Positions 1,822 to 63,426 of a stretch of DNA of 64,000 nucleotides are shown here, in pieces. The stretch lies in the IMG/VR virus record IMGVR_UViG_3300027971_000001; one strand, given 5' to 3'. Every line of letters starts with the position of its first letter. Within the stretch, counting starts at the first letter, position 1. A program made the position numbers and the translations under genes. The stretch comes from a virus. Taxonomy: Duplodnaviria; Caudoviricetes. Under the pieces are notes generated by a model. The model was not told the DNA's origin and did no database searches. It worked only from the letters and a program-made list of their open reading frames with translations.

Positions 1822-2571
1822 TTGACTGGGTTTTGTTACATTTCTTCCTAATTTTTTACTAATAGCTTTGGACCAAGTTTTGTTTAAATTTTTCAATCTT
1901 GTTATTTCAGCTTTTAATTTGTAAGGATCTTGAGGAAGTTCTTCTGTAGATGGTTCAGCAGGAGTTTCATCTGCTACAGGTTCTGGAGTAGGAGCAACGG
2001 TTTCTTTTTTGGCATAAACATCACCATGAAGTTTTTGCTTTTCTTCAGGAGAAAGTTTTGCATATTCCGCAGGATTCATGGTTTTTAATTCAGGTTCAGC
2101 TTTGGCTTGTTCTACAGAATCAGCAGGCTTTGATGATGTTACAGGAGCCGGTGTTTCAGAAGGAGTTTCCTCTTTAGCAGGTGTATATAATGATGTTTGA
2201 CCATACAAAAGAGTTTCTAGTGCACCTTTTTCAGCATCTTCATATTTCTGAGCAGTATGATTAGTTTTGAAGTATTCCAAAGCTTTAGCTTTGTTTTCTT
2301 GCATGTTTGCATCTGCCCATGCACGACTGTTTAAGAACTTATTAAAGGTATCTACAGCTTTTTCTTTGTTTGTTTTGATATCGCCCTTCTTGGCAAATCG
2401 AGGATACCAAAAACGTGTCCACAAATCTTTATATGTTTCATATCTTTTTTTATCTTCACTTCTTTTAGGAATGCCTTTTAAGAAATCCATAATCCCTTCG
2501 TTAAGTGGTTTTCTTTCAACACTTTTCGCAAGAACATAGGCTTCAAATATTTTATGGCTTTCCAAGTGCAT
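1801..2571 (-). CDS. Hypothetical late protein with Pro/Glu/Ala-rich linker; candidate internal head protein
   Basis: Preferred start ATG 2571 (MHLESHKIFEAY), 5 nt behind ATTAAATA (2584-2577). Converges on and overlaps the polymerase end by 21 nt. Confidence 0.7.
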   Translation of the reverse strand: MHLESHKIFEAYVLAKSVERKPLNEGIMDFLKGIPKRSEDKKRYETYKDLWTRFWYPRFAKKGDIKTNKEKAVDTFNKFLNSRAWADANMQENKAKALEYFKTNHTAQKYEDAEKGALETLLYGQTSLYTPAKEETPSETPAPVTSSKPADSVEQAKAEPELKTMNPAEYAKLSPEEKQKLHGDVYAKKETVAPTPEPVADETPAEPSTEELPQDPYKLKAEITRLKNLNKTWSKAISKKLGRNVTKPSQLLVRKK

Positions 2572-2621
2572 ATTATTATTTAATATAGTTGCTTTTCTAA
2601 ATCGTATGATTAAATGGTGGT

Positions 2622-2969
2622 ATGAGTTCAATTCAACCATTCGTAGATCATGTAGGACGTACAATCATAGGCGAAGTTCTTGGCGAGGAGAACGGAAACC
2701 TAAAGGTAAAAAACCCCGCTATTCTGCTGGTTCAGCCGAATCAAGCCACTGGACAACTGAGCATCCAGACGATTCCCTTGTTTTTCAAGGAATTCATCAG
2801 CCCTGCTCTTCGTGAAACAGTTGGCACCTGGCTTTTCCCAAAGGATAAGCTGGTTTTGACCACTGACGTTCAATTAGAAGAGCGTATTATTGAGCAGTAC
2901 AAGCGTATTTTTACGTCTGCTCCTGTTGCTGATTCTAATCCTGAAGTAGTCAAGCTGTTCGAAGACTAA
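2622..2969 (+). CDS. Small beta-rich hypothetical protein directly upstream of uvsX
   Basis: 115 aa ORF; its stop TAA overlaps the uvsX ATG (TAATG), indicating translational coupling. Confidence 0.8.
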   Translation: MSSIQPFVDHVGRTIIGEVLGEENGNLKVKNPAILLVQPNQATGQLSIQTIPLFFKEFISPALRETVGTWLFPKDKLVLTTDVQLEERIIEQYKRIFTSAPVADSNPEVVKLFED

Positions 2970-7168: not shown

Positions 7169-7794
7169 AACACGATTTGTTGGATATTTACAATTCCTTT
7201 ATCAAGGCATATCGGACTGCAAATTCTGCACCATTCCGGTACAGAAAAACATATGAAACTCTTCCACAAGAGGTAAAAAACAAGGTTGAAAGAATCAAGC
7301 TGTTTTTTGATTCTTATGAAATAAATGTGGATAATTTTTTTGAAGCTCCTTATTTTTTATACAAGGACACAAAATATTTTGCGTTTGATTATTATCTTTC
7401 AAGAAAAGCGGTAAAAAGTTACAGTGATTTTGAAAAGGAAATATTAATGATGGGACCAGATCATATCCGCAATCTTGTTAAAATAAAAAATTCTGCATTG
7501 TTTTTAAAGAAGTTTTTAAAAATTGAAGGAATATCTTTTGCAGAATACCTAAACAATAAAAAAGAAAAAGTTCCTTCATTTGTGACACATTTAAAAAATA
7601 GAAATGTTTCAATTTATTTTTTGATGGGTTTAGAAGGTTTTGAAAAAGCTTTTTTTGCTTTTGATTCCAATCTTTTAAAATTCATAATACCAGACATTTA
7701 TGAAAATTATGAATTATATAATAAAAAGTTTCTTACTAGCCAAAATGCCAGAATTTTGGTAAAAAGTATTTTAAATAAAAAGATTCTGAGTTGA
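7165..7794 (+). CDS. Hypothetical helical protein; possible gp59-like helicase loader
   Basis: 209 aa, directly upstream of gp32 as gp59 is in T4. No diagnostic motif recognised. Confidence 0.45.
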   Translation: MKHDLLDIYNSFIKAYRTANSAPFRYRKTYETLPQEVKNKVERIKLFFDSYEINVDNFFEAPYFLYKDTKYFAFDYYLSRKAVKSYSDFEKEILMMGPDHIRNLVKIKNSALFLKKFLKIEGISFAEYLNNKKEKVPSFVTHLKNRNVSIYFLMGLEGFEKAFFAFDSNLLKFIIPDIYENYELYNKKFLTSQNARILVKSILNKKILS

Positions 7795-7817
7795 CATCTT
7801 AATTTGTATGTTAAGAT
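7791..7817 (+). promoter_or_regulatory. Sigma70-like promoter for gp32: TTGACA-15-TAAGAT with TG extension
   Basis: TTGACA 7791-7796, TAAGAT 7812-7817, ATG 6 nt later; inverted repeat ATCTTAA/TTAAGAT. Confidence 0.6.
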
Positions 7818-7823
7818 AAGTTC

Positions 7824-8702
7824 ATGAGTAAATTCACATCATCTATGTTTGAAACGCTGAAGGAATCCCTTACAAAGAAGGGTGAAAATAACAGCGGATT
7901 ATATAAAAATATTCTGAAACTGGAACCAGGAAACACATATAGTGTTCGTTTGATTCCTAATTTGAAGGATGCCAAAAAGACATTCTTTCATCATGTTCAA
8001 CATGGTTGGACAAGTTTCGCAACAGGTCAATATGTCAGTGCCCTTTCCCCGACTACATGGGGCGAAGTTGATCCTATTGGCCAAACTCGTTATAAGCTTC
8101 TTTATAAGAGCAATAATGATGCTGACAAGGTAAAGGGAGCAGAAATCAAGCGTACTGAAAGATGGCTTGCAAATGTTTTGGTTGTTGATGATCCTATTAA
8201 CAAAAGCAACAATGGGAAAGTAATGATTTTGAAGTTTGGCAAACAGCTTCATAAGATCGTTATGGATGCAATGTCCGGTGAAGAAAGTGAAGATTTTGGT
8301 GACAAAATTTTTGATCTTTCTGAAAAAGGTTGCAATCTAAAGATCAAAGTGGAAAAGCAGGGGGATTTCCCGAATTATAGTAGCAGTAGATTCACCTCTC
8401 CAAAAGAAATTGAAGGATTGGATGAAAAGGCTCAAGAAAAAATCTATGAAAGTGGTTTTGACTTGGAAAGTGTTTATCAAAAGAAAACACAAGATGAGCT
8501 TCAGAAACTTTTGGAAGAACATTTCTTCTGTAACGTTTCTGTAACTCCTCCTTCATCTAAAAAGGCGGTTGCTGCTGAAAAGAGCAGCGATCTTGTGGAG
8601 CAGAAAACACAGTTGAAATCCAGCATTGGTGGTAAAAAAGCCGATGATAAAGAGGAAGATTTGATCAAGGATCTTCTTGAAGGTCTGGAAACATCTGAAT
8701 GA
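7824..8702 (+). CDS. gp32: Single-stranded DNA-binding protein
   Basis: YSVRLIP, HHVQHGW, RWLANVLVVDDPINKSNNGKVMILKFGKQL, GCNLKIK, NYSSSRF and an acidic tail. Confidence 0.92.
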   Translation: MSKFTSSMFETLKESLTKKGENNSGLYKNILKLEPGNTYSVRLIPNLKDAKKTFFHHVQHGWTSFATGQYVSALSPTTWGEVDPIGQTRYKLLYKSNNDADKVKGAEIKRTERWLANVLVVDDPINKSNNGKVMILKFGKQLHKIVMDAMSGEESEDFGDKIFDLSEKGCNLKIKVEKQGDFPNYSSSRFTSPKEIEGLDEKAQEKIYESGFDLESVYQKKTQDELQKLLEEHFFCNVSVTPPSSKKAVAAEKSSDLVEQKTQLKSSIGGKKADDKEEDLIKDLLEGLETSE

Positions 8703-9851: not shown

Positions 9852-10261
9852 ATACATCAAACAAAAAAAGAATAAGCAAAAACAAAGTTCGTACACCCAG
9901 TTATTTCATCAAGCGTCTCCGTGACAACGGATTCATTGTATGGAAACTGTTCCAGGAATATGCAAAAACAGATCCTCGTCTTTGGACCATCATTGTTGAT
10001 CCTTCTAACAGCAGTATTTTTATCACCTGTTATCAGAACAAGGATTTCAACGGAGATATCATGTTTGAAATAAATGATGGCGGAATTCGTTTCGTGAAGA
10101 ACTTCAGCCTGAGAACAGACAGCATTGAAAGTGTAATTCTTTTGCTTCTTGAAAAGAACATTGGCAATAATGCTAAAAATAGTAGATTTTTCAAAAAGAT
10201 GGTAAATAGTTCAAGTGAAAAGCCCTCGGAAGAAAAACAACAAGAACTCAACCTCGTCTAA
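9848..10261 (+). CDS. Hypothetical protein
   Basis: ATG 9848 gives an ATGA overlap with the clamp stop (alternative ATG 9836). Confidence 0.75.
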   Translation: MNTSNKKRISKNKVRTPSYFIKRLRDNGFIVWKLFQEYAKTDPRLWTIIVDPSNSSIFITCYQNKDFNGDIMFEINDGGIRFVKNFSLRTDSIESVILLLLEKNIGNNAKNSRFFKKMVNSSSEKPSEEKQQELNLV

Positions 10262-11702: not shown

Positions 11703-11710
11703 TATAAATA
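11703..11710 (+). promoter_or_regulatory. T4-type late promoter TATAAATA
   Basis: Exact T4 late consensus, 5 nt before ATG 11716. Confidence 0.75.
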
Positions 11711-11715
11711 ATAAT

Positions 11716-11901
11716 ATGATCAAAAACGTACCATTTGTGCAGCCCAAACCTCAAGTAAGTCCTATTTCAGGACAATTGACAAGACCTATTATTGTGGAAC
11801 GTCAAGTAGGCAAAAATGTTATGAAAGAAGCACAATGGATTGATCCTGCTTCTGGAACACTCTTTCTGCGCGGTATTGTGAGTGTAGAAGAGAAAAAATA
11901 A
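11716..11901 (+). CDS. Small hypothetical late protein (61 aa)
   Basis: Perfect TATAAATA at 11703-11710, 5 nt before the ATG. Confidence 0.75.
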   Translation: MIKNVPFVQPKPQVSPISGQLTRPIIVERQVGKNVMKEAQWIDPASGTLFLRGIVSVEEKK

Positions 11902-13269: not shown

Positions 13270-13281
13270 TAAATATATTAT

Positions 13282-13656
13282 ATGACAATTTACGTTGATT
13301 GCGGAACATATTACGAAACAGGCGATGCAGTGATTTGCCGCATGCGCAAAGATCAACCTTATTATCCTTTTAGTGGAGGTAGCATTACATGGGAACAATA
13401 TGTAAACCAACAAGTTGCACAAGGATTGGCTCAAGTTGTTCAACTAATCAATGATCCCACTCGTCTGGCCACTTACTGGAATGATGTAATCATCAAACGG
13501 AACGGTCTTCTTGTGGAAAGTGATTGGACACAGCTTCGCGACGTTTCCCTTGGTGATAATCCTGAATGGGTAAGTTATCGTCAGCAATTGCGTGATATTC
13601 CTCAGACATATGCCAGTGATCCTCGTTTGATTGTTTGGCCTGTTAAACCTAGCTAA
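13282..13656 (+). CDS. Tail fibre assembly chaperone (Phage_tail_APC-like)
   Basis: RNGLLVESDWTQLRD...WVSYRQQLRDIPQ...WPVKP is the characteristic signature; AATAAATA 6 nt upstream. Confidence 0.88.
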   Translation: MTIYVDCGTYYETGDAVICRMRKDQPYYPFSGGSITWEQYVNQQVAQGLAQVVQLINDPTRLATYWNDVIIKRNGLLVESDWTQLRDVSLGDNPEWVSYRQQLRDIPQTYASDPRLIVWPVKPS

Positions 13657-13711
13657 ATCATATATAAATTTTGATGTTTTTCGTTAAATAATATTATATT
13701 ATTTTAACGAT

Positions 13712-15064
13712 ATGAGCAACGCATATAATCTAAGTCTTTTAGCATCAAGAAACAATCTGGGAAATGCTGGGGTTGTCTTCATCAGTCAAGGAAATGATAT
13801 TGCTCCATCTTTGGGTCCGCTAAGTGCCGGTGTTTTGAGTTTAAGTGGAATAAACCAGCTTACCAGTCAAATAGGTGTAAACAAATCAACAGGGGTTGTT
13901 ACCATATCCGCAGAACCTCATTTGTGTGAATTGGGTGTGCCAGGATGGGATAAAGGACAGCACATAACACAATGGAGCACATTGCAAAAATATCTGAGTG
14001 CAACAGCCCTAACCAATAGTACTATTCCTGCAAGTGCTGCTTTTGTTGAATATTTCGGAACTGTACCAGGATTTGGTGGGGCTCAAAATTATGAAGGAGG
14101 TACTTTGGCTCCCAACGGAAAAATATATTGTTTTCCAGAAAATGCAACAACCGCCCTACTTATAGATCCTGTAACAAATACTATAACAACATTCGGAAGT
14201 TTTCCGGGAGGATCACTTAGTAATAAATTTCAAGGATCTGTTTTGGCTCCCAACGGAAAAATATATGGAATTCCTTGTGGTAATACTGCAGGAGGAGGTG
14301 GGGCTCAATCTGTGTTTTATTTTATAGATCCGTCCACAACAACAGTTTCAGCTTTTGCAACTGTCGCCAACATTGCAGGTACAAATGCATATCAGGGAGG
14401 AATTCTTCATCCAAATGGAAAAATTTATATGACTCCCGAAGCAGGATCAGTCGTTCATTATATCGATCCACAACTTAATACTGTTGTGGCTTTTGCAACA
14501 ATTTCCTTCAACAATTTTTATGCACTTTCAAAAGCAGCATTGGCTCCTAATGGAAAAATATATTTTGGAATAAACTCCGGAAGTGTGGGACGTATTTTGG
14601 ATCCAAGTACCAACACATTTGGAACATATGCTCCAGTAGGAGGATTTCCCGCAAATCTAGCTTCAAATGGTATTACTCTTGCACCTGATGGAAAATTATA
14701 TCTTACACCGAGCAACTCAATAGCGTATCTTGTGGATCCGGATAATGATTCAGTTACATCCTATGCAACTGGTCCGTCAATAACAGGAAACATAAGCACA
14801 TTCGGAGGAAAGCTTGCTCCGAATGGAAAAATATATTTTACATCTTGGGTGGGTACATATTTTGGAGTTTTGGATCCTGAAAATCTAACAGTCACAAGAT
14901 TGGGAACAGTTGCATCTGTTGCTTATCTTGATATGGTTGTTACCCCTAATGGTAAATTGGTTTTCATACCCGCAGCGGCAACAACAGTAACAGCTTATAA
15001 TCTTCTTTTAAACAATAATTGGAATATGAATATTTGTACTAATCCTTTGTTTAACACAAATTAA
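13712..15064 (+). CDS. Beta-propeller protein, paralog 2
   Basis: Repeated LAPNGKIY/HPNGKIY/APDGKLY blades; ends NNNWNMNICTNPLFN. Confidence 0.75.
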   Translation: MSNAYNLSLLASRNNLGNAGVVFISQGNDIAPSLGPLSAGVLSLSGINQLTSQIGVNKSTGVVTISAEPHLCELGVPGWDKGQHITQWSTLQKYLSATALTNSTIPASAAFVEYFGTVPGFGGAQNYEGGTLAPNGKIYCFPENATTALLIDPVTNTITTFGSFPGGSLSNKFQGSVLAPNGKIYGIPCGNTAGGGGAQSVFYFIDPSTTTVSAFATVANIAGTNAYQGGILHPNGKIYMTPEAGSVVHYIDPQLNTVVAFATISFNNFYALSKAALAPNGKIYFGINSGSVGRILDPSTNTFGTYAPVGGFPANLASNGITLAPDGKLYLTPSNSIAYLVDPDNDSVTSYATGPSITGNISTFGGKLAPNGKIYFTSWVGTYFGVLDPENLTVTRLGTVASVAYLDMVVTPNGKLVFIPAAATTVTAYNLLLNNNWNMNICTNPLFNTN

Positions 15065-15072
15065 ATAAAATC

Positions 15073-16389
15073 ATGAGTAATGCAACAAATCTGGCACTTT
15101 TGGGACTGAGCAGCTTCGGCAATGCCGGAAATGTTTTGACCAGCACCGGTGAAACCACTGCCCCAGCATTCAGTGCAAGCAGTGTGGGTGTACGAGAAAT
15201 CCGTGTTGTAAATCAGGTTCTTAGTCGATTGGGCGTTAATAGAAGCACAGGAAATGTTAGTGTCAGCGCTCTTCCTGATATCAGTGAAATTGCTGTTCCA
15301 AGCTGGCTGAACGGTGGTCACATCAGTGATTGGAGCACGTTGCAATATTATCTGAGTGCAGTTGCTGCTACGAATACAAGTCCGGCCAGCGCTGGTTTTG
15401 TTGAATATCTATCCGTTGTTCAAGAGTATAACAAAGGAATGGTTCTAGCACCTAACGGAAAAATGTACACAGCCCCTCATGGTGCAGGAGTAGGAACGAC
15501 ATATGGTTTGATAATTGATCCTTCCAGCAATACAATTTCTTCATATATAGCCACAATAGTAGCGTTGGGTAGTCTAACTACTGATGCATTTTATGGTTCA
15601 GTTTTAGCACCAAATGGAAAAATTTATTTTGTTCCAGACAGGGCAACTGTCGGTGCATTAGTCGATCCTTCAACTAATACAGTTTCAACTTTTGGAACTT
15701 TGCCAGCATTTGGTGCCGGAACAAATGCTTTTGGTTATGCAATTTCTGCTCCAAATGGAAAAATATATCTTATTCCTGAAAATTCAACTATAGGAAGAAC
15801 AATTGATCCAAACACAAATACATTTGGAACTTATCCAAGCAGCAATTGGTCAGGAGGTTTAAGTTATCATAGTACAGCAGCTCTTGCTCCTAATGGAAGA
15901 ATATATGTGTTTCCTAACATAAGTACACTTGTTGCTAAAATTGATCCAAGTAATGATTCAACCACAGTAATTTTATCAAATGTTAAAAACATTGCAGGAT
16001 CTGTTCTTGCTCCAAATGGAAATATATATTTGTTTCCAAATACTTCTTCTCAAAAAATTATAAAATTCGATCCTAATTCAGAAACAGTTTCAACTATTGC
16101 AGCAACAAATCCTAGTGGAGGTCCTGCATGTTTGCTTCCAAATGGAAAAATATTTTATGGAGGATACTCCAATACGTTAGCGGCAATTTTCGATCCATCC
16201 AATGAAACCATACAAACAATTTGTACAATAGGAGGTGTTCCTCCAACTTATGCTGGTTGGAATGTAGCACCAAATGGAAAAGTGTATGGATTGCCCTTTA
16301 GTACCAGTAATATTATATGTATTAATTTTTTAAACAAAAATAATTGGAATCTGAATGTTGCAACAAATCCAATGTTCAACAAAAACTGA
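15073..16389 (+). CDS. Beta-propeller protein, paralog 3
   Basis: Repeated LAPNGK blades; ends NNWNLNVATNPMFN; ATTAAATA 5 nt upstream. Confidence 0.75.
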   Translation: MSNATNLALLGLSSFGNAGNVLTSTGETTAPAFSASSVGVREIRVVNQVLSRLGVNRSTGNVSVSALPDISEIAVPSWLNGGHISDWSTLQYYLSAVAATNTSPASAGFVEYLSVVQEYNKGMVLAPNGKMYTAPHGAGVGTTYGLIIDPSSNTISSYIATIVALGSLTTDAFYGSVLAPNGKIYFVPDRATVGALVDPSTNTVSTFGTLPAFGAGTNAFGYAISAPNGKIYLIPENSTIGRTIDPNTNTFGTYPSSNWSGGLSYHSTAALAPNGRIYVFPNISTLVAKIDPSNDSTTVILSNVKNIAGSVLAPNGNIYLFPNTSSQKIIKFDPNSETVSTIAATNPSGGPACLLPNGKIFYGGYSNTLAAIFDPSNETIQTICTIGGVPPTYAGWNVAPNGKVYGLPFSTSNIICINFLNKNNWNLNVATNPMFNKN

Positions 16390-16729: not shown

Positions 16730-16747
16730 GTTCTGTTAAATATTTAT

Positions 16748-16945
16748 ATGGGGAAAGATGATAAAATAGAGGCTGTTGTTACGCAAAAAATCACTGCTGA
16801 TTTTATTCTGAAAATATATGATAATTACAAAAAAGAAAAAAATGTCAAAAAGAAAAAAGAAATGTATGAAAAATTGCAATTATTATCAAAAAACCTTAAT
16901 CAATACTTAGTAGTGCCTAAAGATTATGATAAATATTACAACTAA
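16748..16945 (+). CDS. Hypothetical basic protein (65 aa)
   Basis: Preferred start ATG 16748 (MGKDDK), 5 nt after GTTAAATA. Confidence 0.65.
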   Translation: MGKDDKIEAVVTQKITADFILKIYDNYKKEKNVKKKKEMYEKLQLLSKNLNQYLVVPKDYDKYYN

Positions 16946-17196
16946 TGAATAAAAGACCCAGCAACGATAATGATATTAAAGGAATTTATGAAAGTGATGT
17001 ACGCAATACCGGCATCATGAGTGCGCCGGATGCAAGCAAAATAAATCCAGGAATTAACCGGGATAGTGGAGCTAGCCAGAACATTTACACACCAAATGAC
17101 TATCGGATCGGGGAAAATGAAGAAGGTGAGAAAGAAAGCAAGGTATTGGAAGCGTTGAAAAAAATTAAAGAGATTTTAAATAATCTTGATCTATGA
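16945..17196 (+). CDS. Hypothetical protein (83 aa)
   Basis: TAATG coupling upstream, ATGA coupling to the GH108 gene; GATAAATA at 16928-16935. Confidence 0.7.
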   Translation: MNKRPSNDNDIKGIYESDVRNTGIMSAPDASKINPGINRDSGASQNIYTPNDYRIGENEEGEKESKVLEALKKIKEILNNLDL

Positions 17197-18418: not shown

Positions 18419-18900
18419 AAAAAATAGCATGTTTGATGATTATTGCCGGAATATTATATAATATTATTCAGCAAACCAAAGAAAAAGCCATAATCAATCC
18501 AGTTGATAATGTGATTTGTTCTGGAATGACTAAAATGGCTGATGATTTTGTAAAGAAATTGGTTGTTGAAAAGACTGTAAAGGTTCGATTAACAACATAT
18601 TGGGCAAAAGGTGGAGAAACTGATAAGGATAGCGCAAAAAAGCATAGCTATACAGGAGCCACATTAAAAGAAGGGGTGAGTGTTGCAGTCGATCCTCGTC
18701 TAATCCCCTTCTTTAAGCGTTTATACATACCAAATTTAGGGCTTAGAGTGGCTCATGATACAGGAACAGCAGTTAAGGATAAAAAGGCAAGTAAGGGTAA
18801 ATTGCCTGTTATAGACGTATTTTTTGAAAAAAAGAAGGATGCCATGGAATTTGCATACAATGGACCTAAAATAGTCACAGTTAGCATTTATAAATACTAA
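18415..18900 (+). CDS. 3D-domain (MltA-like) protein with N-terminal signal anchor
   Basis: VRLTTYW, VAVDPRLIPF, AHDTGTAVK and VIDVFF supply the three Asp; hydrophobic N-terminus IACLMIIAGILY. Confidence 0.85.
   Translation: MKKIACLMIIAGILYNIIQQTKEKAIINPVDNVICSGMTKMADDFVKKLVVEKTVKVRLTTYWAKGGETDKDSAKKHSYTGATLKEGVSVAVDPRLIPFFKRLYIPNLGLRVAHDTGTAVKDKKASKGKLPVIDVFFEKKKDAMEFAYNGPKIVTVSIYKY
18889..18896 (+). promoter_or_regulatory. T4-type late promoter TATAAATA
   Basis: Exact consensus, 5 nt before GTG 18902. Confidence 0.7.
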
Positions 18901-18901
18901 T

Positions 18902-20781: not shown

Positions 20782-20848
20782 TAGTAATATTTATTTAATA
20801 TATCAGTTTCTACAATTATTTTAAAAATATTTTGAATAAATAACTTAT

Positions 20849-25731: not shown

Positions 25732-25770
25732 AGTATAAAATTATTTATGAAAGAAAATCTTTTTACAATG

Positions 25771-37980: not shown

Positions 37981-37991
37981 AAAATTATTTA

Positions 37992-40797: not shown

Positions 40798-40826
40798 ATA
40801 AATTATTTAATTGTAAATTTCCTTTG

Positions 40827-48901: not shown

Positions 48902-49375
48902 TTAGATAAAGTAAAATCCGCTATCTTTTAAAACGCCTTTAATATTTACGTTTGAAAGATTAAGAGATGGTACATTGATCCTCATGTTTATTGTGTACTG
49001 ACTTTGATCGTAATCTACGTTCACATTTATATTTAAAATAGAAACTCGTGGTTCAAACAATTCTGTTCCTTCAAAAATAACTTTTCCTATCAATCTGGCA
49101 TTTGCTTCACTTAAATTTGTAAAAACAAATTGCATGAGATTTAAGCCATAAATGGGGTTAAGAATCTTTTGTCCTGGAAGGGTTGTAAAAAGGTTAAAAA
49201 GACTGTTTTTTATTGCATCCAAATCATAATCTGCCTTTAAATCCTTGATTTCCAGCTTTTTGGACAATTCCGTCCCACGGGTATAATTTTGTTCTAAATC
49301 AAACCGAATATCCTTATAAATGTGATCATCTATTTTGGGTGGTTGCTGTAAAAATGAAAGGTTAATAGATGCCAT
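48902..49375 (-). CDS. gp25: Baseplate wedge subunit
   Basis: YKDIRFD, DLDAIKNSLFNLFTTLPGQKILNPIYG and FEPRV. Confidence 0.9.
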   Translation of the reverse strand: MASINLSFLQQPPKIDDHIYKDIRFDLEQNYTRGTELSKKLEIKDLKADYDLDAIKNSLFNLFTTLPGQKILNPIYGLNLMQFVFTNLSEANARLIGKVIFEGTELFEPRVSILNINVNVDYDQSQYTINMRINVPSLNLSNVNIKGVLKDSGFYFI

Positions 49376-49423
49376 ATTTTATAAATATTTAATATAAAAG
49401 TTTGTTTTTAAGGATAAATATTC

Positions 49424-50035
49424 ATGATGAGAAAATTTACAAGTTTATACGAGTCATTCATTAGCCGATATACCCGTGGTGGATTCCTTACCGGGGATAT
49501 TGTTAAATTTAAAGAAGGTGCTTTGAAAAATGAATGGTTCAAAAAACAAGGTTCTTCCATCGTTGAAAAGGCAAAACAGTTTGCTGATAGCGGTCTGCAC
49601 ATGCGTGTAAGCTCTGTAAAAACCCTTCGCCCCAGCAGTCAGCCTGGATTTGTTGAAGGAAATAACGCAGATGACTTTTATTGTGATGTTACACTCGAAT
49701 TAGCTCCTGGATGTTATAAAGATTTCATGACTCTTCCTGCCGGAATTCTTGAATATAAAGATTATTATCCGAATCTTCCTGAAGTACCTGAAGGTTTGAA
49801 AAGGGATAATAATATCAATATCAAACCCAAAGAACTTGAAGAAGAAAAAGCCACAGCAGCTGCTATTCTCAACCCCACCTATCAAACATCTCAGACAGAT
49901 CGGGGCGATGGTAAAAATTCACCTTCCGAAATTGAATTAAAGAATACAAACGTAAAGATACCTTCCAAACCTGCTGAAGGTAGTAAGAATCCTAGTGTGG
50001 CTTCTTATACCTACGATTATCTTCCTAAGAGCTAA
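49424..50035 (+). CDS. Hypothetical late protein
   Basis: GATAAATA at 49413-49420 just upstream; N-terminus MMRKFTSLYESF. Confidence 0.75.
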   Translation: MMRKFTSLYESFISRYTRGGFLTGDIVKFKEGALKNEWFKKQGSSIVEKAKQFADSGLHMRVSSVKTLRPSSQPGFVEGNNADDFYCDVTLELAPGCYKDFMTLPAGILEYKDYYPNLPEVPEGLKRDNNINIKPKELEEEKATAAAILNPTYQTSQTDRGDGKNSPSEIELKNTNVKIPSKPAEGSKNPSVASYTYDYLPKS

Positions 50036-50960: not shown

Positions 50961-50977
50961 ATTAGTTGTAAATATAT

Positions 50978-51005
50978 ATGTTATGGATCAAAAAGTCGAA
51001 GTCAA
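50978..51005 (-). promoter_or_regulatory. Sigma70-like promoter TTGACT-16-TAACAT for gp44
   Basis: Read on the minus strand; ATG 17 nt after the -10. Confidence 0.55.
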
Positions 51006-55494: not shown

Positions 55495-57381
55495 TTAATT
55501 ACCTCTGTATCCTTTTCTCAAATCAAAAACTGAAGTTGATTGGGGAAAACTGTTTTGTGTGCTTTGGTTGATAACATTATTGACAACATTCTTTCCGTTT
55601 GCCAATTGTTCCATCAACATATCAAATTTTTGATTTAATGTTTTGAATTCACGCAATTGATCTACTGCTATCTTGTTGTTAACAGTATTTGTTTTATTGA
55701 GATTGCCCATTTGATCACCAAACATTGAAAAAGCTTCAGACGGATTGTTTTCAATTTTAGATACTAAATTTTCAAAATTAAACCCATTTGTTTTATTTAA
55801 ATTATTCATTTCATCGGTGAACACTGAAAAAGGTTTTGATAAATCATTTAAATTTCTATTAGCCATATTTGTTTCTGAAGAAACATCAAATATAGGCGTT
55901 GTAGCAACTGCAGGTGTAGGCATTTCTGTTATTTGTGATTCTGATGCTATGGCTTTTAATTCCTCACCTACTTTTTTCATGAAAGGAATCTGGGATATTT
56001 TGTCAGCCAAAGACTTTATACCATCCCAAATCATGACAAAAAAGTTCTTTATATAACCAAAGAATTTTGATGCCAATGATGCTATTTCTTTCATTAACGG
56101 TGCAATATATTCAAAGGTTTTTTTAAGAATATTAAACGCACCGACAACAGGACCGCCTAAAAGATTTAATATTGGAGTTATGTATGGACCAAATTTTTCC
56201 CCTATAGCTTTAAAAAGATTTATAATAGGATCAAAAATATTTCCTATTCTTTTTGCGATAGCTGTGTAAAATTTTCCTAAATCAAATCTATCAAAGAAAT
56301 CACTAATTTTCTTTCCCAGATCTTTATCAAACCAACCTATAATCCAACCAACTATTTTTCCGGGTATGGAAATGATTACAGATGAAAGTTGATTTCCTAT
56401 TTGTGACAATCCTTGTAACCATTTTCCTTCCCGAAACGGCTTAAATATCTCTTCTATCCGATCCCTGATAGTTTCAAACTTAAAAAGATCCAAACCAAAA
56501 ATTTCAAAGAAATCAAAAAAGTTTAACAATCCTTTTGTAAGACCTGTAACTACTTTTTGAAGAAATGATTTGTCTTTAAGCTTAGGATCATTAAATGCTT
56601 CAACCAATCCAACAATAACTTCAAAAAGAGCCAAAACAGGTCCTAAAATTTTACCAACCAACCTTCCTATTTTGGATCCAACTTGAAAAACTTTAAATGC
56701 TATTCTTATATAATCTTCAAACAATCTAAAAAAGGTCGGAAATGCTTTCATCATAAGCAAAGGACCTTTTCCACCTTCAACTATTTTGAAAACTCTTCCT
56801 ATAGTTTCAAACAATTTAGCTATAGGTTTAATAACCTTTTCTTTTAAAGCATCTTCAATAAATTTTACAAATTTTGTTTCACGTATAGGTTTTAACAATT
56901 CAAGAATTTTAAGTTTTATAGCAGAAAAAATTTCTTTTATGAATTTTCCTAATTTGGTTTCACTTAAAAATAATTTTAATCCTTTTAACATCTTTACTAT
57001 TTCTGCAATAGCTCCGGATACAATACCAGCTAAAAGTGCAAGTGCACCTAAAAGTGCTTTTATCCACTTATTAGATTTTTCTTCAATTTTTGCCAATGTA
57101 GGTGAAAGAACAAGATCTTTAATTTCTTTTTGTTTAAATTCAGGTCTTCCCACTTTTTCTTCACCTTTGGGAAATACAATATCTTTGATTGATTTGGCAA
57201 GAATTTTCGACATTGTTTCCCACCGACGTTTTTCAGTAGTTGAAAGAGTAGAAGACAATTTATCGTCCTCATTTACTATAGTATCCCCCTTTTCATCCCC
57301 CTTCTTTCTGTCAAAAGAAGCCAATTTATCTACTGTTTGGGATAAGGTTTTTAAGAGATTGATTGTCTCTTCATTAGTCAT
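55495..57381 (-). CDS. Tape-measure-like protein (gp29 position)
   Basis: 628 aa amphipathic helical repeats with hydrophobic stretches; AATAAATA 6 nt upstream. Confidence 0.6.
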   Translation of the reverse strand: MTNEETINLLKTLSQTVDKLASFDRKKGDEKGDTIVNEDDKLSSTLSTTEKRRWETMSKILAKSIKDIVFPKGEEKVGRPEFKQKEIKDLVLSPTLAKIEEKSNKWIKALLGALALLAGIVSGAIAEIVKMLKGLKLFLSETKLGKFIKEIFSAIKLKILELLKPIRETKFVKFIEDALKEKVIKPIAKLFETIGRVFKIVEGGKGPLLMMKAFPTFFRLFEDYIRIAFKVFQVGSKIGRLVGKILGPVLALFEVIVGLVEAFNDPKLKDKSFLQKVVTGLTKGLLNFFDFFEIFGLDLFKFETIRDRIEEIFKPFREGKWLQGLSQIGNQLSSVIISIPGKIVGWIIGWFDKDLGKKISDFFDRFDLGKFYTAIAKRIGNIFDPIINLFKAIGEKFGPYITPILNLLGGPVVGAFNILKKTFEYIAPLMKEIASLASKFFGYIKNFFVMIWDGIKSLADKISQIPFMKKVGEELKAIASESQITEMPTPAVATTPIFDVSSETNMANRNLNDLSKPFSVFTDEMNNLNKTNGFNFENLVSKIENNPSEAFSMFGDQMGNLNKTNTVNNKIAVDQLREFKTLNQKFDMLMEQLANGKNVVNNVINQSTQNSFPQSTSVFDLRKGYRGN

Positions 57382-57408
57382 CCAAAATATTTATTAAAAA
57401 ATATCTTT

Positions 57409-60020: not shown

Positions 60021-60572
60021 TTAACTTTGATAGGTTCTGCGGAAATATTGATAAGCAACAGTGACTGTGAATGTTACGAATTCACCACCATTGGTAATAT
60101 CATATTCCAGAGGTCCAACATTACGAGGAGAAACACCGACCAACTGATATTGCGAAACGCGATTCAATTGGTTGTCTAATTGAACCAAATCAATGACGGC
60201 TGTTTGCTTGGCGGCAAAATAGTTACCAGTGCTTGTGACATCATCAAAAACATCTCGTGTCCAATCTTCAAACTTTTGACGAAGATTGCTCTTTTGATCG
60301 CAATAAAATTCCATTGCATAAGCTTCGGAGCCAGGATATTTTGCACTACCAGGAATATGGAAATCCAATCCCATGTAAGGAACTGTTACTTCAGTGATTT
60401 CACGGGCAGGAAGTGAAGCGGTACGAACATAAACCAAATCATCTTCGTTCCAAACTTGGCTGCTTGAGTCACCCGCATTAATATTAATAACACGGAAATT
60501 AAATTTACGTGAAAAATCACGTTCAGTTACTATACGGTAAAAATTCTGAATTGTTTGTTGTGTGGCTGCCAT
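60021..60572 (-). CDS. gp19: Tail tube protein
   Basis: RTASLPAREITEVTVPYMG...IPG, FEDW, VDLVQLD, GPLEYD and FTVTVAYQYF. Confidence 0.9.
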   Translation of the reverse strand: MAATQQTIQNFYRIVTERDFSRKFNFRVININAGDSSSQVWNEDDLVYVRTASLPAREITEVTVPYMGLDFHIPGSAKYPGSEAYAMEFYCDQKSNLRQKFEDWTRDVFDDVTSTGNYFAAKQTAVIDLVQLDNQLNRVSQYQLVGVSPRNVGPLEYDITNGGEFVTFTVTVAYQYFRRTYQS

Positions 60573-60582
60573 ATATTATTAT

Positions 60583-60981
60583 TTATTCTAAAGTTAACAA
60601 ATACTTTAATTTATTTAGTTCTGCAACGATTTCTTCTACAATATTTTGTGCATCGGTGTCATTTGCATTTAAGATTGGACATTCTTTATTTGTTAAAATT
60701 CCTATATATTGATTTATTTTTGCCAAAATATTGTCATTAGAATATGGCTCTATAGTCAAATTTATGGGTTTATACTCGTAACTACGATAACGACCTAGTA
60801 AAGCTTCCACCAATTTATCAAAAGCTTTTGCTAAATCTTTTCCTATTTTATCAAACGCTTCGTGTTGGGCAAAGCTAAAAGTTTGCCAATGAAACAACTT
60901 TAACTGGGCACTGCATTCCAAAGCAAGAGTTATAATATATGAAGGATCGTAACTTTGTTGGATTTTAATTACTTTTATCAC
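60583..60981 (-). CDS. Ferritin-like four-helix protein (Dps-related, DUF5856-like)
   Basis: QLKLFHWQTFSFAQHEAFD...DKLVEALLGRY...EEIVAELNKLKYLLTL; GTG start 5 nt after TATAAATA. Confidence 0.8.
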   Translation of the reverse strand: MIKVIKIQQSYDPSYIITLALECSAQLKLFHWQTFSFAQHEAFDKIGKDLAKAFDKLVEALLGRYRSYEYKPINLTIEPYSNDNILAKINQYIGILTNKECPILNANDTDAQNIVEEIVAELNKLKYLLTLE

Positions 60982-60986
60982 GTTTA

Positions 60987-60994
60987 TATTTATA
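60987..60994 (-). promoter_or_regulatory. T4-type late promoter TATAAATA
   Basis: Abuts the gp18 terminator; 5 nt before GTG 60981. Confidence 0.75.
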
Positions 60995-60997
60995 ACA

Positions 60998-61028
60998 AAA
61001 CACCCCTCTTTCAATAAGAGGGGTGTTT
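60998..61028 (-). terminator. Intrinsic terminator after gp18
   Basis: 13-bp stem AAACACCCCTCTT/AAGAGGGGTGTTT with 5-nt loop, followed by TTGTT on the minus strand. Confidence 0.85.
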
Positions 61029-61048
61029 CATAATTTTATATATTATTA

Positions 61049-63412
61049 TTAGGATACCAATTCTTGGAAGTCCTGACCAGTTCGTGTGGCATAGAAGTTA
61101 ACCAAGATGAATTCTGCGGCACGTACAGGTTTGATGTAGATGTCCACAACCAGTTCATTTTGGTCGATCACATCAGGTGTATTGTTTCTTTCGTCGCATA
61201 TGATCAGATAGTCATATACACCTTGTGTGTTCTTGGCCAATTCGAATATCGGTGTAAGAACGTTTATTACTTGCGTTCTTGTGAACAGTGTATTCGGTTC
61301 GAACAAGAAGAACTTGATGGTATTCCTTGTCGCGACTTCCAGATACAAGAACAACCGGCGTACATTGATACGATCAAATGCGCTTGGTTTCTTTAACAAG
61401 GTCTTTTGACCGAAGATTACAAATCCTTCAGCAGGGAAGAATGCAACCGGATTCAAATTAACCTTATACAATTGATCACGATGTTTTTGTGTGGGATAGA
61501 TCGGAAGATCATTCACACCAAGCAATACGCCCCGAGTAAATCCGGCAGGAGCGAACCAAGGTTGGAAGTTATCGTCAGTATTTGCCATTGCAGCACCTGC
61601 AAATCCTGAGAAAGGAACCCATGTTTGCTTGCCTAGACCATCATCAAATACCCTAGGGAATGTGGCATATGTACATGCATAGCTTGTGTTCAGCAAGCTG
61701 TACAAGTGACGTAATGGCCAGTAAATGTGTTGATTAAAGTTCTTTGATGGATCATCAATAACTTTGCTATTTTCACCTTGAACAAAGATGTTACGGAGAG
61801 GATCTGCAATGAATAGATGATCTTTGCGAACATTCTGGGCAAAGTTTGTGAATACGCTTGCCACAGTATTGTAATTTTCGCGAATATCAAGAGCATTTCC
61901 ATTAAGACCTTCGTTATTAGTAATGAAGAATCCAGTCATATCAAGAGGAATAGTGTCATCGAACACGTCTGCACCGCTAAGAACATTCAGATTGTAACGG
62001 GCAGCTGAGAATATTGTTCCAAGACCACCTTCCAATGACAATGAAAGATTGTAAAGATCAGGATTTTCAAGCAATGTGAACACACGTTCCAGCTTTGTTG
62101 GAACGTTTCCGATTAATTTGGCAGTTGCAACTGTTGTATCGAAAGCACCGAAGCTATAAAGAGCGTCAATGCGACGAAGAGGACTTGCTACATTGTTGGC
62201 CAACCAACCCACAACTGCACTAGGAGCACCCACACGTGTTTCATATGTTGCATTTGTGTCAACAAATCCATCACTATTCAAAGGATTAGCCAGATTCGGA
62301 TTCAACATACGAACCTTCTTGTTGGGATTTCCTGCACTATTCAACCATGTTTGTGTATTACGATTGCTGATAAAAGGATTGATCAACAATGAAAGATTGG
62401 GACTATCATCTTCAACCGATCCTATAAAGAATGTTTGGGCTGGACCGCCGTTTTCGCTATTGATTTGACGGAAATAATCAAATGAACCCACATAACTTTC
62501 AGACAATAGATAATCTAAACTGATAACATCAGGGGCAAACACGCTTTGGCGGAGTTTGAACACACCAAGGATGATTGTATCATCAAACTGGCGTGTGCTG
62601 ATATCAAAAGTAGGAATATTTTCCATTACTTCACTAACACTGTTTCCAAGACCAAACTGTGTTGCGCTTAATGGGAAGTTCAAACGAGTACGAGGAACAT
62701 TCAGGAAGTTGTATGTGGATCCAGCTTTGGAATCAACACTGCGAACTTGACTGATACCATCGAATTGTGTGGCAGGATTCAAATTAGTGTTATCAATCGC
62801 TCCTACATAATATCCTTCATATTTTTGATTGATGCTGGTTTGAGCTTTGTTAAGAACAATCATTCCGGCATTGGCCAATTGTGTAAGTTTGCTGGCGCCT
62901 GTGCTGGTGAAGCTGAATTGTGTTGGTACATTTTTCCAACTTGAGAATGCATCACCATTAAGAATGCTTTGATATTCAGTTGCATTCAATTCAATCTGTG
63001 TGGGTTGACCGAAGAAATATGTGTTTGCACCAGAAAGACCAGTACCACCTGTGGCAGCAGTTCCTTCATATGCTCCATTATAACTGGTTACAGGATAAAC
63101 AAGAGCAGAGTAAGAATCTGTGAAACCTGCACCGCTTCCGCTACCATATGGCATACGGCTGACAAGCACTTCTGCTTGGCTTTGGAACATTGCTTTAACA
63201 GTGTGATAAAAATAACGTTCAGCCGCATTGGTGGGCTTGCCATAAATTTGTTCAAATTCGCTAAGACTTGAAGGTTGGATAATTTCATCCAAAGGACCTT
63301 GAGGTGCATAACCAGGTATTAAAACCGTTGTGGGAACATTAATTACTGGACGTAATGAAAGATCTATTTCGTTAATTTCAACACCAGGACTCTGAATTGT
63401 ACGCTTAGGCAT
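61049..63412 (-). CDS. gp18: Tail sheath protein
   Basis: SPGVEINEIDLS, WFAPAGFTRG, NPVAFFP.EG..IFGQKTL....SAFDRINVRRLF, FEPNT and IKPVRAAEFI. Confidence 0.97.
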   Translation of the reverse strand: MPKRTIQSPGVEINEIDLSLRPVINVPTTVLIPGYAPQGPLDEIIQPSSLSEFEQIYGKPTNAAERYFYHTVKAMFQSQAEVLVSRMPYGSGSGAGFTDSYSALVYPVTSYNGAYEGTAATGGTGLSGANTYFFGQPTQIELNATEYQSILNGDAFSSWKNVPTQFSFTSTGASKLTQLANAGMIVLNKAQTSINQKYEGYYVGAIDNTNLNPATQFDGISQVRSVDSKAGSTYNFLNVPRTRLNFPLSATQFGLGNSVSEVMENIPTFDISTRQFDDTIILGVFKLRQSVFAPDVISLDYLLSESYVGSFDYFRQINSENGGPAQTFFIGSVEDDSPNLSLLINPFISNRNTQTWLNSAGNPNKKVRMLNPNLANPLNSDGFVDTNATYETRVGAPSAVVGWLANNVASPLRRIDALYSFGAFDTTVATAKLIGNVPTKLERVFTLLENPDLYNLSLSLEGGLGTIFSAARYNLNVLSGADVFDDTIPLDMTGFFITNNEGLNGNALDIRENYNTVASVFTNFAQNVRKDHLFIADPLRNIFVQGENSKVIDDPSKNFNQHIYWPLRHLYSLLNTSYACTYATFPRVFDDGLGKQTWVPFSGFAGAAMANTDDNFQPWFAPAGFTRGVLLGVNDLPIYPTQKHRDQLYKVNLNPVAFFPAEGFVIFGQKTLLKKPSAFDRINVRRLFLYLEVATRNTIKFFLFEPNTLFTRTQVINVLTPIFELAKNTQGVYDYLIICDERNNTPDVIDQNELVVDIYIKPVRAAEFILVNFYATRTGQDFQELVS

Positions 63413-63418
63413 ATAAAT

Positions 63419-63426
63419 TATTTATA
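63419..63426 (-). promoter_or_regulatory. T4-type late promoter TATAAATA (gp18)
   Basis: 6 nt before ATG 63412. Confidence 0.75.

What the first reader, a model, noticed from the sequence alone, without database searches (positions are those of the whole stretch)
2571..63426. Gene-by-gene leaderless late transcription: TAAATA sits 5-10 nt before more than 20 start codons
Seen (start codon, gap in nt after an nnTAAATA box): 2571(5), 11716(5), 13282(6), 15073(5), 16748(5), 16945(9), 18902(5), 20781(6), 20849(6), 25731(10), 26770(6), 27336(6), 29895(5), 30085(9), 30778(9), 32935(5), 37980(5), 40797(6), 49375(10), 50983(8), 57381(6), 60572(7), 60981(5), 63412(6). None has a Shine-Dalgarno between box and start. 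Established: T4 gp55 promoters are TATAAATA with initiation about 5-7 nt downstream. Inference: transcription starts on or beside the AUG, so most late mRNAs are leaderless and nearly every gene has its own promoter, unlike SD-led T4 operons. The upstream stop TAA is sometimes part of the box (13267, 15062). This points to a host with efficient leaderless initiation.
Basis: partly seen in the sequence, partly recalled or inferred. Interest (0 to 1): 0.8.

Follow-up and report, generated by a model that had tools for sequence, protein, structure and literature searches.

The report
Late promoters fused to start codons
In this uncultured freshwater T4-like phage the short late-promoter box TAAATA sits so close to about 28 start codons that the messenger RNAs should begin at or next to the AUG, an expression style not described for T4-type phages in the papers I could search and still unproven by RNA mapping.

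Summary
All 24 listed sites are real, and I found four more. TAAATA ends 3-11 nt before 28 of 65 gene starts, against 2.3±1.5 in shuffles. Elsewhere the hexamer is depleted, on both strands inside genes.

The boxes head free-standing virion and lysis genes and are nearly absent from the replication block. Two of them directly abut strong terminators.

The modal spacing is 5-6 nt. T4 geometry places the box at -13 to -6, so N5 puts +1 on the A of ATG. T4 and cyanophage S-SM1 keep the box 12-50 nt upstream.

The pattern holds across the clade: 47 related loci and two complete relatives, all five large relatives encoding gp55. In the two complete relatives, sigma70-type promoters also sit 6-8 nt before ATGs. 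A translation signal would not explain that.

Pelagibacter phage HTVC008M shows N5 at 11 annotated starts.

Caveats:
- No transcription start was mapped.
- The claim that nearly every gene has its own promoter is overstated (28 of 65).
- The capsid gene uses a Shine-Dalgarno leader.
- The host is unknown.

This scan has noted the same geometry on other DNA: 82 notes in at least 51 genomes.

The parts
2571..2582 (-). TAAATA (2577-2582), N5, ATG 2571; unknown 256-aa gene antisense to the replication block
10203..10217 (+). TAAATA, N6, GTG 10215; the only box inside the replication block, and the start is uncertain
11705..11718 (+). TATAAATA, N5, ATG 11716; small unknown gene
13270..13284 (+). 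TAAATA, N6, ATG 13282; tail-fibre assembly gene
15062..15075 (+). TAAATA, N5, ATG 15073; the TAA of the box is the stop codon of the upstream gene; fibre-like gene
16737..16750 (+). Palindromic TAAATATTTA; + arm, N5, ATG 16748; the - arm faces GTG 16729 (gap 11, doubtful)
16930..16947 (+). TAAATA, N9, ATG 16945
17177..17195 (+). TAAATA, N10, ATG 17193; endolysin
18891..18904 (+). TATAAATA, N5, GTG 18902; endolysin-like gene
20779..20797 (-). Two overlapping boxes, N6 and N10, ATG 20781; tail-collar fibre gene; divergent partner of 20849
20837..20851 (+). TAAATA, N6, ATG 20849; divergent partner of 20781 across a 67-nt spacer
25729..25747 (-). TAAATA, N10, ATG 25731; CHAP/3D lysin gene
26768..26782 (-). 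TAAATA, N6, ATG 26770; all 8 orthologues found in relatives carry GAATAAATA at N5-6
27334..27388 (-). Strong terminator hairpin (27349-27388, dG -27.8) whose T-tract runs into TATAAATA, N6, ATG 27336
   Evidence: capsid-mRNA contigs end at 27379-27398
29893..29910 (-). Two overlapping boxes, N5 and N9, ATG 29895; gp22 scaffold gene
30083..30100 (-). TAAATA, N9, ATG 30085; 49-aa gene
30776..30793 (-). TATAAATA, N9, ATG 30778; gp21 prohead protease; 23 of 34 distinct orthologue upstreams carry a box at 4-12 nt, mode 5
32933..32946 (-). TATAAATA, N5, ATG 32935
37978..37991 (-). TAAATA, N5, ATG 37980; roughly 1090-aa virion-region gene
40795..40809 (-). TAAATA, N6, ATG 40797
49373..49391 (-). Palindromic TAAATATTTA; - arm, N10, ATG 49375; baseplate wedge gene
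49415..49429 (+). TAAATA, N6, ATG 49427 (or N3 to ATG 49424); divergent partner of 49375
50969..50985 (+). TAAATA, N8, ATG 50983
57379..57393 (-). TAAATA, N6, ATG 57381; tape-measure-like gene
60570..60585 (-). TAAATA, N7, ATG 60572; gp19 tail tube gene
60979..61031 (-). Terminator hairpin (60995-61031, dG -22.4) directly followed by TATAAATA, N5, GTG 60981
63410..63424 (-). TATAAATA, N6, ATG 63412; gp18 tail sheath gene
7791..7826 (+). Sigma70-type promoter TTGACA-N15-(TGt)TAAGAT, N6, ATG 7824; gp32 SSB gene, predicted leaderless early/middle gene
28939..28990 (-). Exception: the major capsid gene (ATG 28941) has no box; it has a hairpin, then GGTCGA, then AAGGAG about 11-12 nt before the ATG, an arrangement seen in most of 75 relatives
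13685..13714 (+). Box with a T4-like distance (N21) before ATG 13712; similar cases at 27015 (N14/N21), 53889 (N22) and 7165 (N22)

Best explanation
TAAATA, with extended consensus [A/T]-A-TAAATA, is the -10-type late promoter of this T4-like phage. A gp55-type phage sigma most likely reads it. It has no -35 element.

In this clade the box sits 5-6 nt, less often 7-10 nt, before the start codon of the first gene of each late transcription unit. With T4 geometry (box at -13 to -6), RNA polymerase then initiates on the A of the AUG or 1-5 nt before it. The first cistron would therefore be leaderless or nearly so, and would be translated without a Shine-Dalgarno sequence. In known systems that happens through 70S/IF2-dependent initiation on a 5'-terminal AUG.

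Genes further down a unit mostly abut or overlap the preceding gene. Their translation by coupling is inferred. A few use an SD, above all the major capsid gene.

What is shown: the motif, its spacing, its gene class, its depletion on both strands, its adjacency to terminators, its presence across the clade, and gp55 in relatives. What is inferred: the start site itself and the mode of translation.
For: Enrichment and sharp spacing:
- 28 of 65 starts carry the box against 2.3±1.5 in shuffles.
- 35% of all copies lie before long-ORF ATGs, against 2-12% for the composition-matched permutations.

The spacing equals the T4 box-to-+1 distance. The T4 review places the first box base at -13, so the 8-bp box spans -13 to -6 (PMC2988020). 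TAAATA-N5-ATG then puts +1 on the A.

Clade-wide conservation:
- 47 loci with MCP identity of 70-78% give gap counts of 126 at 5 nt, 49 at 6 nt and 27 at 7 nt.
- Complete relatives G002 and G003 peak at 4-6 nt and at 5 nt.
- Orthologue footprints show the box kept while the flanks diverge.

The signal acts at the DNA level. Inside genes TAAATA is depleted on the sense strand (20 against 52±8) and on the antisense strand (15 against 54±8). G002 gives 113 against 179 and 141 against 229.

The boxes mark transcription-unit starts:
- 24 of 37 free-standing genes have one, against 4 of 28 abutting genes (p=5e-5).
- Two strong terminators run straight into boxes.
- Divergent gene pairs 48-67 nt apart each have their own box.

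Gene class fits a late programme. The replication block has 1 box in 14 genes and the rest of the window 27 in 51 (p=0.002). The box genes include sheath, tube, protease, scaffold, baseplate, fibre and lysin genes.

The machinery is present. gp55 homologues occur in all five large relatives (E about 1e-16 to 1e-17; phrog_234). A gp45-like clamp occurs in G002.

The logo matches T4: A at -12 in 65-72% of sites, and a spacer almost free of G.

The contrast is clear. T4 and S-SM1 boxes lie 12-50 nt before the ATG, and in T4 an SD lies between.

There is independent support. In relatives an unrelated promoter class, TTGACW-N16-18-TATAAT, also sits 6-8 nt before ATGs, which is the sigma70 -10-to-+1 distance. 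The counts are 10 of 14 sites at exactly 6 nt in G002 and 10 of 12 at 6-8 nt in G003.

Precedents exist: phiYS40 leaderless middle/late mRNAs (PMC3594737) and a -10 element adjacent to ORFs in Deinococcus-Thermus (PMC12340547).
Against: - No 5' end was mapped. The metatranscriptome data are assembled contigs at depth of about 4 for box genes. The listed contigs stop 13-26 nt inside three box genes and none is shown crossing a box. That is only weakly consistent with the model.
- Many boxes lie in 8-15 nt spacers with no terminator before them. The same genes must therefore also lie internally on read-through transcripts, where an SD-less internal start has to be used. An RNA-level role for the A/U-rich box is not excluded.
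- Eight to nine sites have gaps of 9-10 nt, which would give 4-5 nt leaders.
- Four box starts are GTG, which is poor for leaderless initiation in E. coli.
- gp33 was not detected. gp45 was found in one relative only.
- The window's own genome is not held, so gp55 is shown only in relatives.
- The start-site spacing of this clade's gp55 is assumed to equal that of T4.
Confidence: 0.68

Rival explanations
1. The box is mainly an RNA-level translation signal. It would be an A/U-rich, SD-independent ribosome landing site at a fixed distance from the AUG, suited to an SD-poor host, and not a promoter.
For: - The phage is SD-poor overall: 17% of starts have an SD-like word, against 71% in T4.
- Many boxes lie in very short spacers inside apparent operons, where internal initiation is needed.
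- Scan notes report TAAATA-N4/5-ATG in phages with no recognisable gp55. I did not check those notes.
Against: - The antisense strand of genes is as depleted as the sense strand. An RNA signal would not cause that.
- Replication genes lack the box.
- Boxes follow terminators and fill divergent spacers.
- Some boxes sit 21-22 nt away, as in T4.
- The motif is the T4 gp55 box, and gp55 is present in relatives.
- In relatives full sigma70 promoters, -35 included, occupy the same position before ATGs.
Confidence: 0.1
2. The boxes are late promoters, but the mRNAs are not truly leaderless. Either the polymerase starts 1-5 nt before the AUG and these mini-leaders are translated by an ordinary SD-independent 30S route, or some annotated starts are wrong and the real start codon lies further downstream.
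For: - Gaps of 6-10 nt make up about half of the window's sites.
- Four starts are GTG.
- Start codons were assigned from ORFs only.
Against: - Across the clade the mode is exactly N5: 126 of 246 distinct sites.
- Homology reaches close to the N-termini for gp21 and gp19.
- For gene 18902 the next in-frame ATG would cut into the endolysin homology.
- HTVC008M's N5 sites coincide with annotated starts.
Confidence: 0.14
3. The pattern is a by-product of composition: AT-rich gene starts, plus TAA stop codons of upstream genes that happen to lie before ATGs.
For: - Upstream regions are AT-rich.
- In one case (15073) the TAA of the box is the upstream stop codon. At 13282 the stop lies directly beside the box.
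Against: - Shuffles of the same upstream stretches give 2.3 sites against 28 observed.
- Fourteen composition-matched permutations, several containing TAA, show no such peak.
- At N5 the TAA is out of frame with the ATG.
- Boxes also occur after terminators and between divergent genes.
Confidence: 0.01

Closest known systems
Phage T4 late promoters (TATAAATA at -13 to -6, read by gp55 with gp33 and the gp45 clamp)
   Same: - Same core box, with A at -12 and A/T at -13.
- No conserved -35 element.
- AT-rich, G-free segment after the box.
- Heads virion and lysis genes on either strand.
- gp55 is encoded by relatives.

   Different: - In T4 (73-123 kb) the boxes lie 12-50 nt before the ATG, mostly about 24-28 nt, with an SD between. 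71% of T4 starts have an SD-like word.
- Here the mode is 5-6 nt, with no room for an SD.
- gp33 was not detected.

T4-like cyanophage S-SM1 (Kyanoviridae), which has an SD-poor host
   Same: - Nearest cultured relatives by capsid protein, about 33% identity.
- SD-poor: 20% of starts.
- NATAAATA-type boxes, with gp55 and gp33 annotated.

   Different: - Before real gene starts its boxes lie 19-53 nt upstream. None of its 50 called gene starts has a box within 3-11 nt.
- An SD-poor host alone therefore does not produce the fused geometry.

Pelagibacter phage HTVC008M (cultured pelagimyophage)
   Same: - TAAATA-N5-ATG occurs at 11 annotated gene starts in the first 100 kb.
- It encodes gp55.
- GC content is similar, at 34%.

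   Different: - The geometry is mixed. Other late genes keep 18-36 nt leaders with GGAG.
- The sigma70-type promoters lie mostly 11-14 nt or 25-36 nt before the ATG, not 6 nt.
- Capsid identity is only about 30%.
- The pelagimyophage paper reports that late-promoter prediction was unsuccessful (PMC7029224).

Thermus phage phiYS40 and Deinococcus-Thermus genes with a -10 element adjacent to the ORF
   Same: Promoter -10 element a few bp before the start codon, giving leaderless mRNAs. In phiYS40 this holds for most middle and late transcripts (PMC3594737; PMC12340547).
   Different: - The phage lineage is unrelated, and the promoters there are read by the host sigma.
- Here the element is the gp55-type box of a T4-like phage.
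- phiYS40 is reported to shift host IF2 and IF3 levels. Nothing comparable was examined here.

Membership tests
T4-type late transcription system (gp55/gp33/gp45) | 8-bp TATAAATA-like box with no conserved -35 element | tested here: met
   Logo of 26 window sites and 246 distinct sites in relatives: TAAATA preceded by A (65-72%) and by A/T (about 80%). There is no -35 word, only an A-rich tract near -29 to -27.
T4-type late transcription system (gp55/gp33/gp45) | AT-rich segment immediately downstream of the box | tested here: met
   The first four spacer positions hold 0-4% G in both sets and 0-11% C. This agrees with the T4 review.
T4-type late transcription system (gp55/gp33/gp45) | Phage encodes a gp55 late sigma | tested here: inconclusive
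   Found in all five large relatives (E 1e-16 to 1e-17; phrog_234 at 1.9e-24). The window's own genome is not held, and gp55 is not in the window.
T4-type late transcription system (gp55/gp33/gp45) | gp45 sliding clamp and gp33 co-activator are encoded | tested here: inconclusive
   A gp45-like clamp is present in G002 (phrog_223, E 5.6e-13) and was not detected in four other relatives. phrog_254 (gp33) matched nothing, and its control rang nowhere. The gp44 clamp loader is in the window.
T4-type late transcription system (gp55/gp33/gp45) | Boxes head late (virion, lysis) genes, not replication genes | tested here: met
   1 of 14 replication-block starts has a box, against 27 of 51 elsewhere (p=0.002).
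T4-type late transcription system (gp55/gp33/gp45) | Transcription starts about 6 nt after the box, late in infection and dependent on replication | not testable with these tools
   Only assembled metatranscriptome contigs were available.
Leaderless mRNA | Promoter -10 element 5-7 nt before the start codon | tested here: met
   15 of 26 proximal ATG sites in the window are at 5-6 nt. The clade mode is 5 nt.
Leaderless mRNA | No Shine-Dalgarno sequence before the start | tested here: met
   No SD-like word lies between box and start.
Leaderless mRNA | Primary 5' end of the mRNA at the start codon | not testable with these tools
   The listed contigs stop 13-26 nt inside three box genes, and none is shown crossing a box. 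Depth is about 4 and contigs cannot show transcript ends.
Leaderless mRNA | 5'-terminal AUG as the start codon | tested here: inconclusive
   24 of 28 box starts are ATG and 4 are GTG (10215, 16729, 18902, 60981).
SD-led T4 late operons | Leader of about 15-40 nt with an SD 5-10 nt before the start | tested here: not met
   17% of window starts have an SD-like word, against 71% in T4. Only about 5 boxes lie at T4-like distances. The capsid gene is the clear SD-led exception.

The most novel reading that the evidence does not exclude
A widespread clade of freshwater T4-like phages, and in part the cultured pelagimyophage HTVC008M, runs nearly its whole programme on leaderless mRNAs. Both the sigma70-type early promoters and the gp55-type late promoters are fused to start codons, so that +1 is the A of the AUG. 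A Shine-Dalgarno leader is kept only for a few top-expressed genes such as the capsid gene. This would mean either that their uncultured hosts translate 5'-terminal AUGs efficiently, or that the phage retunes initiation.
Probability: 0.5. Interest if true: 0.75.

Novelty: new variant of a known kind. Interest (0 to 1): 0.62.

Why it matters
T4 is the textbook model for phage late transcription, and its late mRNAs carry SD leaders.

A large environmental branch of the same family appears to fuse its promoters to start codons. If that holds, three things follow:
- It gives a simple and precise rule for calling gene starts and transcription units in these abundant uncultured phages. A published attempt to predict late promoters in pelagimyophages failed (PMC7029224).
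- It predicts that their hosts, or the infected cell, handle leaderless mRNAs well. That is a testable clue to host identity and to translation in streamlined freshwater and marine bacteria.
- It offers a natural set of minimal 11-nt promoter and start-codon cassettes.

HTVC008M shows the same N5 geometry and is cultured, so the prediction can be tested directly.

Tried and rejected
- **Own genome.** It is not held. The nearest record, G001, is a 10-kb fragment without the capsid gene. I therefore sought gp55, gp33 and gp45 in relatives only.
- **gp33 and gp45 by tblastn.** Queries from S-SM1 (gp33, gp45) and HTVC008M (gp45) found nothing. Profile searches found gp45 in G002 only, and gp33 nowhere, with a silent control.
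- **Metatranscriptomes.** Six RNA runs hold the phage, but only as assembled contigs. Only the capsid mRNA is deep.
- **Literature.** I searched for leaderless mRNAs in T4-like phages, cyanophages and pelagiphages. No description of this geometry turned up. The Syn9 TSS study and the phiYS40 primary paper are not held.
- **Host identity.** G002 and G003 carry no psbA, psbD, hli or S21. The sigma70-type TTGACW/TATAAT promoters argue against a Bacteroidota-type host promoter, though another reader notes a phage-encoded RpoD-like sigma that I did not check. I did not resolve the host.
- **Composition artefact.** Considered and rejected.
- **Sigma70-type promoters in the structural loci.** None was found before gene starts there, as expected for late regions.


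Full report
**What the window is.** It is part of an uncultured freshwater T4-like myovirus of about 31-39% GC.
- Virion genes: gp23-type major capsid protein (27448-28941, minus strand; Pfam Gp23, E 1e-88), tail sheath (61049-63412), tail tube, prohead protease gp21, scaffold and baseplate wedge genes.
- A tape-measure-like gene and several lysins are also present.
- Replication genes: family-B DNA polymerase, UvsX/RecA, a gp41-like helicase, gp32 SSB and the gp44 clamp loader.
- These assignments rest.
- The closest cultured phages by capsid protein are cyanophages, at only about 33% identity.
- The window's own assembly is not held.
- IMG/VR holds many relatives with capsid identity of 70-78%. 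Two are complete records, G002 (229.7 kb) and G003 (217.4 kb).

**The observation.**
I found four more: 10215, 17193, 49427 and a doubtful one at 16729.
- TAAATA is not simply common in an AT-rich genome. It has 74 copies against 111±11 expected, and it is the rarest of the 15 permutations of A4T2.
- 35% of its copies lie 3-11 nt before an ATG that opens a long ORF. The other permutations give 2-12%.
- 28 of 65 gene starts have a box ending 3-11 nt upstream. Shuffles of the same 40-nt upstream stretches give 2.3±1.5, with a maximum of 9 in 5000.
- Only 1 box ends at 12-20 nt and 4 end at 21-29 nt.
- The gap histogram peaks at 5 nt (7 sites) and 6 nt (8 sites), with a second group at 9-10 nt (8 sites).

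**Is it a DNA signal or an RNA signal?** Five lines point to a promoter.
- Inside genes, TAAATA is depleted relative to codon-shuffled controls on the sense strand (20 against 52±8) and equally on the antisense strand (15 against 54±8). G002 gives 113 against 179 and 141 against 229. A translation signal would not be selected against on the antisense strand. A promoter would.
- The boxes go with transcription-unit starts. 24 of 37 genes that follow a spacer of at least 8 nt or a divergent gene have a proximal box. Only 4 of 28 genes that abut or overlap the preceding gene have one (p=5e-5).
- Two strong intrinsic terminators run straight into a box. One lies before 27336 (dG -27.8) and one before 60981 (dG -22.4). 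In four lake metatranscriptomes the abundant capsid mRNA contigs end at 27379-27398, at the first of these hairpins.
- Divergent gene pairs separated by only 48-67 nt each have their own box next to their ATG. Examples are 20781/20849 and 49375/49427.
- The replication block has 1 box in 14 starts, against 27 in 51 elsewhere (p=0.002).

**Which promoter, and where would transcription start?**
- The extended logo is [A/T]-A-TAAATA, followed by a spacer almost free of G. This matches the T4 late promoter and its AT-rich downstream segment.
- The T4 review places the first box base at -13, so the 8-bp box spans -13 to -6 (PMC2988020).
- TAAATA-N5-ATG therefore puts +1 exactly on the A of the ATG, and N6 puts it one base before.
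- gp55 homologues are present in all five large relatives (phrog_234). A gp45-like clamp is present in G002. gp33 was not detected, which is inconclusive for so small a protein.

**Comparison with known T4-like phages.** I applied the same ORF-based measure to each.
- In T4 (73-123 kb) the boxes lie 12-50 nt before ATGs, mostly about 24-28 nt, with GGAG or AGGA between. 71% of T4 starts have an SD-like word.
- In cyanophage S-SM1 the boxes lie 19-53 nt before real gene starts, although its host is SD-poor.
- In the window 17% of starts have an SD-like word, and in G002 15%.
- The fused geometry is therefore not a general property of T4-like phages or of SD-poor hosts.

**Clade-wide conservation.**
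- In 47 related loci (708 kb) the gap histogram peaks sharply: 126 sites at 5 nt, 49 at 6 nt and 27 at 7 nt.
- G002 has 66 proximal boxes, peaking at 4-6 nt. G003 has 36 at 5 nt and 13 at 6 nt.
- 23 of 34 distinct gp21 orthologue upstreams carry the box at 4-12 nt, with a mode of 5, while the flanks diverge. All 8 orthologues of gene 26770 carry it at 5-6 nt.
- Most gp22 orthologues lack the box. Promoter positions therefore turn over between relatives, but the spacing is kept wherever a box is present.

**An independent argument from a second promoter class.**
- In G002 and G003, canonical sigma70-type promoters (TTGACW-N16-18-[TC]A[TAC]AAT) also abut start codons. In G002, 10 of 14 sites lie exactly 6 nt before a long-ORF ATG. 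In G003, 10 of 12 lie at 6-8 nt.
- Six nucleotides after the -10 hexamer is the standard sigma70 distance to +1, which is established knowledge.
- The window has one such case, before gp32: TTGACA-N15-(TGt)TAAGAT-N6-ATG 7824.
- Two unrelated promoter types are thus each placed at their own characteristic distance, so that +1 falls on the AUG. That is hard to explain except by leaderless expression.
- It also extends the idea beyond the late genes.

**Limits.**
- No start site was mapped. The RNA data are assembled contigs, and box genes have a depth of about 4. The listed contigs stop 13-26 nt inside three box genes (26770, 29895, 30778), and none is shown crossing a box. This is only weakly consistent with the model.
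- Many boxes lie in spacers of 8-15 nt with no terminator. These genes are therefore probably also internal on longer transcripts, where an SD-less internal start must work. A second, RNA-level role of the A/U-rich box cannot be excluded.
- Gaps of 9-10 nt imply 4-5 nt leaders. Four starts are GTG.
- The claim that nearly every gene has its own promoter is too strong: 28 of 65 genes have a box.
- The major capsid gene is a clear exception. It has no box. It has a hairpin, GGTCGA and AAGGAG about 11-12 nt before its ATG, an arrangement seen in most of 75 relatives.
- The host is unknown. G002 and G003 carry no cyanophage photosynthesis genes.

**Comparison with the literature.**
- Leaderless middle and late mRNAs are documented for Thermus phage phiYS40 (PMC3594737).
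- A -10 element adjacent to the ORF is an accepted signature of leaderless genes in Deinococcus-Thermus (PMC12340547).
- phiKZ has no leaderless transcripts (PMC8244752).
- My searches found no paper describing this geometry in T4-like phages.
- The pelagimyophage study states that late-promoter prediction was unsuccessful (PMC7029224). The Melnitz study lists late promoters without comment on spacing (PMC9004378).
- The cultured pelagimyophage HTVC008M has TAAATA-N5-ATG at 11 annotated starts within its first 100 kb, alongside SD-led late genes. It is the closest cultured system and the obvious place for the experiment.

**Earlier notes of this scan.** Other first-stage notes on this genome report the same pattern in neighbouring windows. 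82 notes in at least 51 other genomes report TAAATA-N4-6-ATG. These are unchecked leads, but they suggest the geometry is common in environmental phages.

**Verdict.** I class it as a new variant of known kinds, combining the T4-type late promoter with leaderless mRNA. Interest is 0.62.

Noticed in passing
window 28942-29020 (-); loci L001-L080 upstream of the capsid gene: The major capsid gene has a conserved leader instead of a box: a short hairpin, then GGTCGA(C), then AAGGAG about 10-12 nt before the ATG. Most of 75 relatives share it. RNA contigs from two runs end at 29002/29003, just upstream of this element. In two other runs the deep contig runs on to about 29370-29440, inside the scaffold gene. 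It may be a processing site or a different promoter type.
   Followed up: partly
G002 (L088-L099) and G003 (L103-L113), e.g. G002 219-229 kb minus strand: Sigma70-type promoters TTGACW-N16-18-TATAAT lie 6 nt before the ATG of small early-region ORFs. Many of these ORFs begin ATGATG.
   Followed up: partly
relatives L006-L080, N5 sites; window 20781, 20849, 25731, 26770, 32935, 49375, 60572: Genes behind TAAATA-N5 very often have alanine (GCN) as the second codon: 57 of 125 in relatives. Seven of the 28 box genes in the window do too, at various gaps. I did not compare this with genes that lack a box.
   Followed up: no
window 16737-16746, 27026-27035, 49382-49391: Palindromic TAAATATTTA places a box on both strands at once. 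At 16737-16746 and 49382-49391 it lies between divergent genes, which suggests compact bidirectional promoters.
   Followed up: no
window 11911-13269 and 13712-15064, with their downstream spacers: Two fibre-like genes end in near-identical 3' sequences. Each is followed by a box-led gene (13282, 15073). They look like a duplicated fibre-plus-downstream-gene cassette.
   Followed up: no
L101/L102 (Pelagibacter phage HTVC008M, NC_020484): TAAATA(G)-N5-ATG occurs at 11 annotated starts. Its sigma70-type promoters carry an extended -10 (TGTGATATAAT or TGATAGGAT) mostly 11-14 nt before the ATG, which implies leaders of about 5 nt.
   Followed up: partly
window 59932-60016 (-): The tube-like gene 59063-59932 has only a TTG start in its ORF, an 88-nt spacer, and a TAAATA at 60005-60010. 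Another reader proposes a hairpin-occluded SD and an ATC start here. I did not examine it.
   Followed up: no
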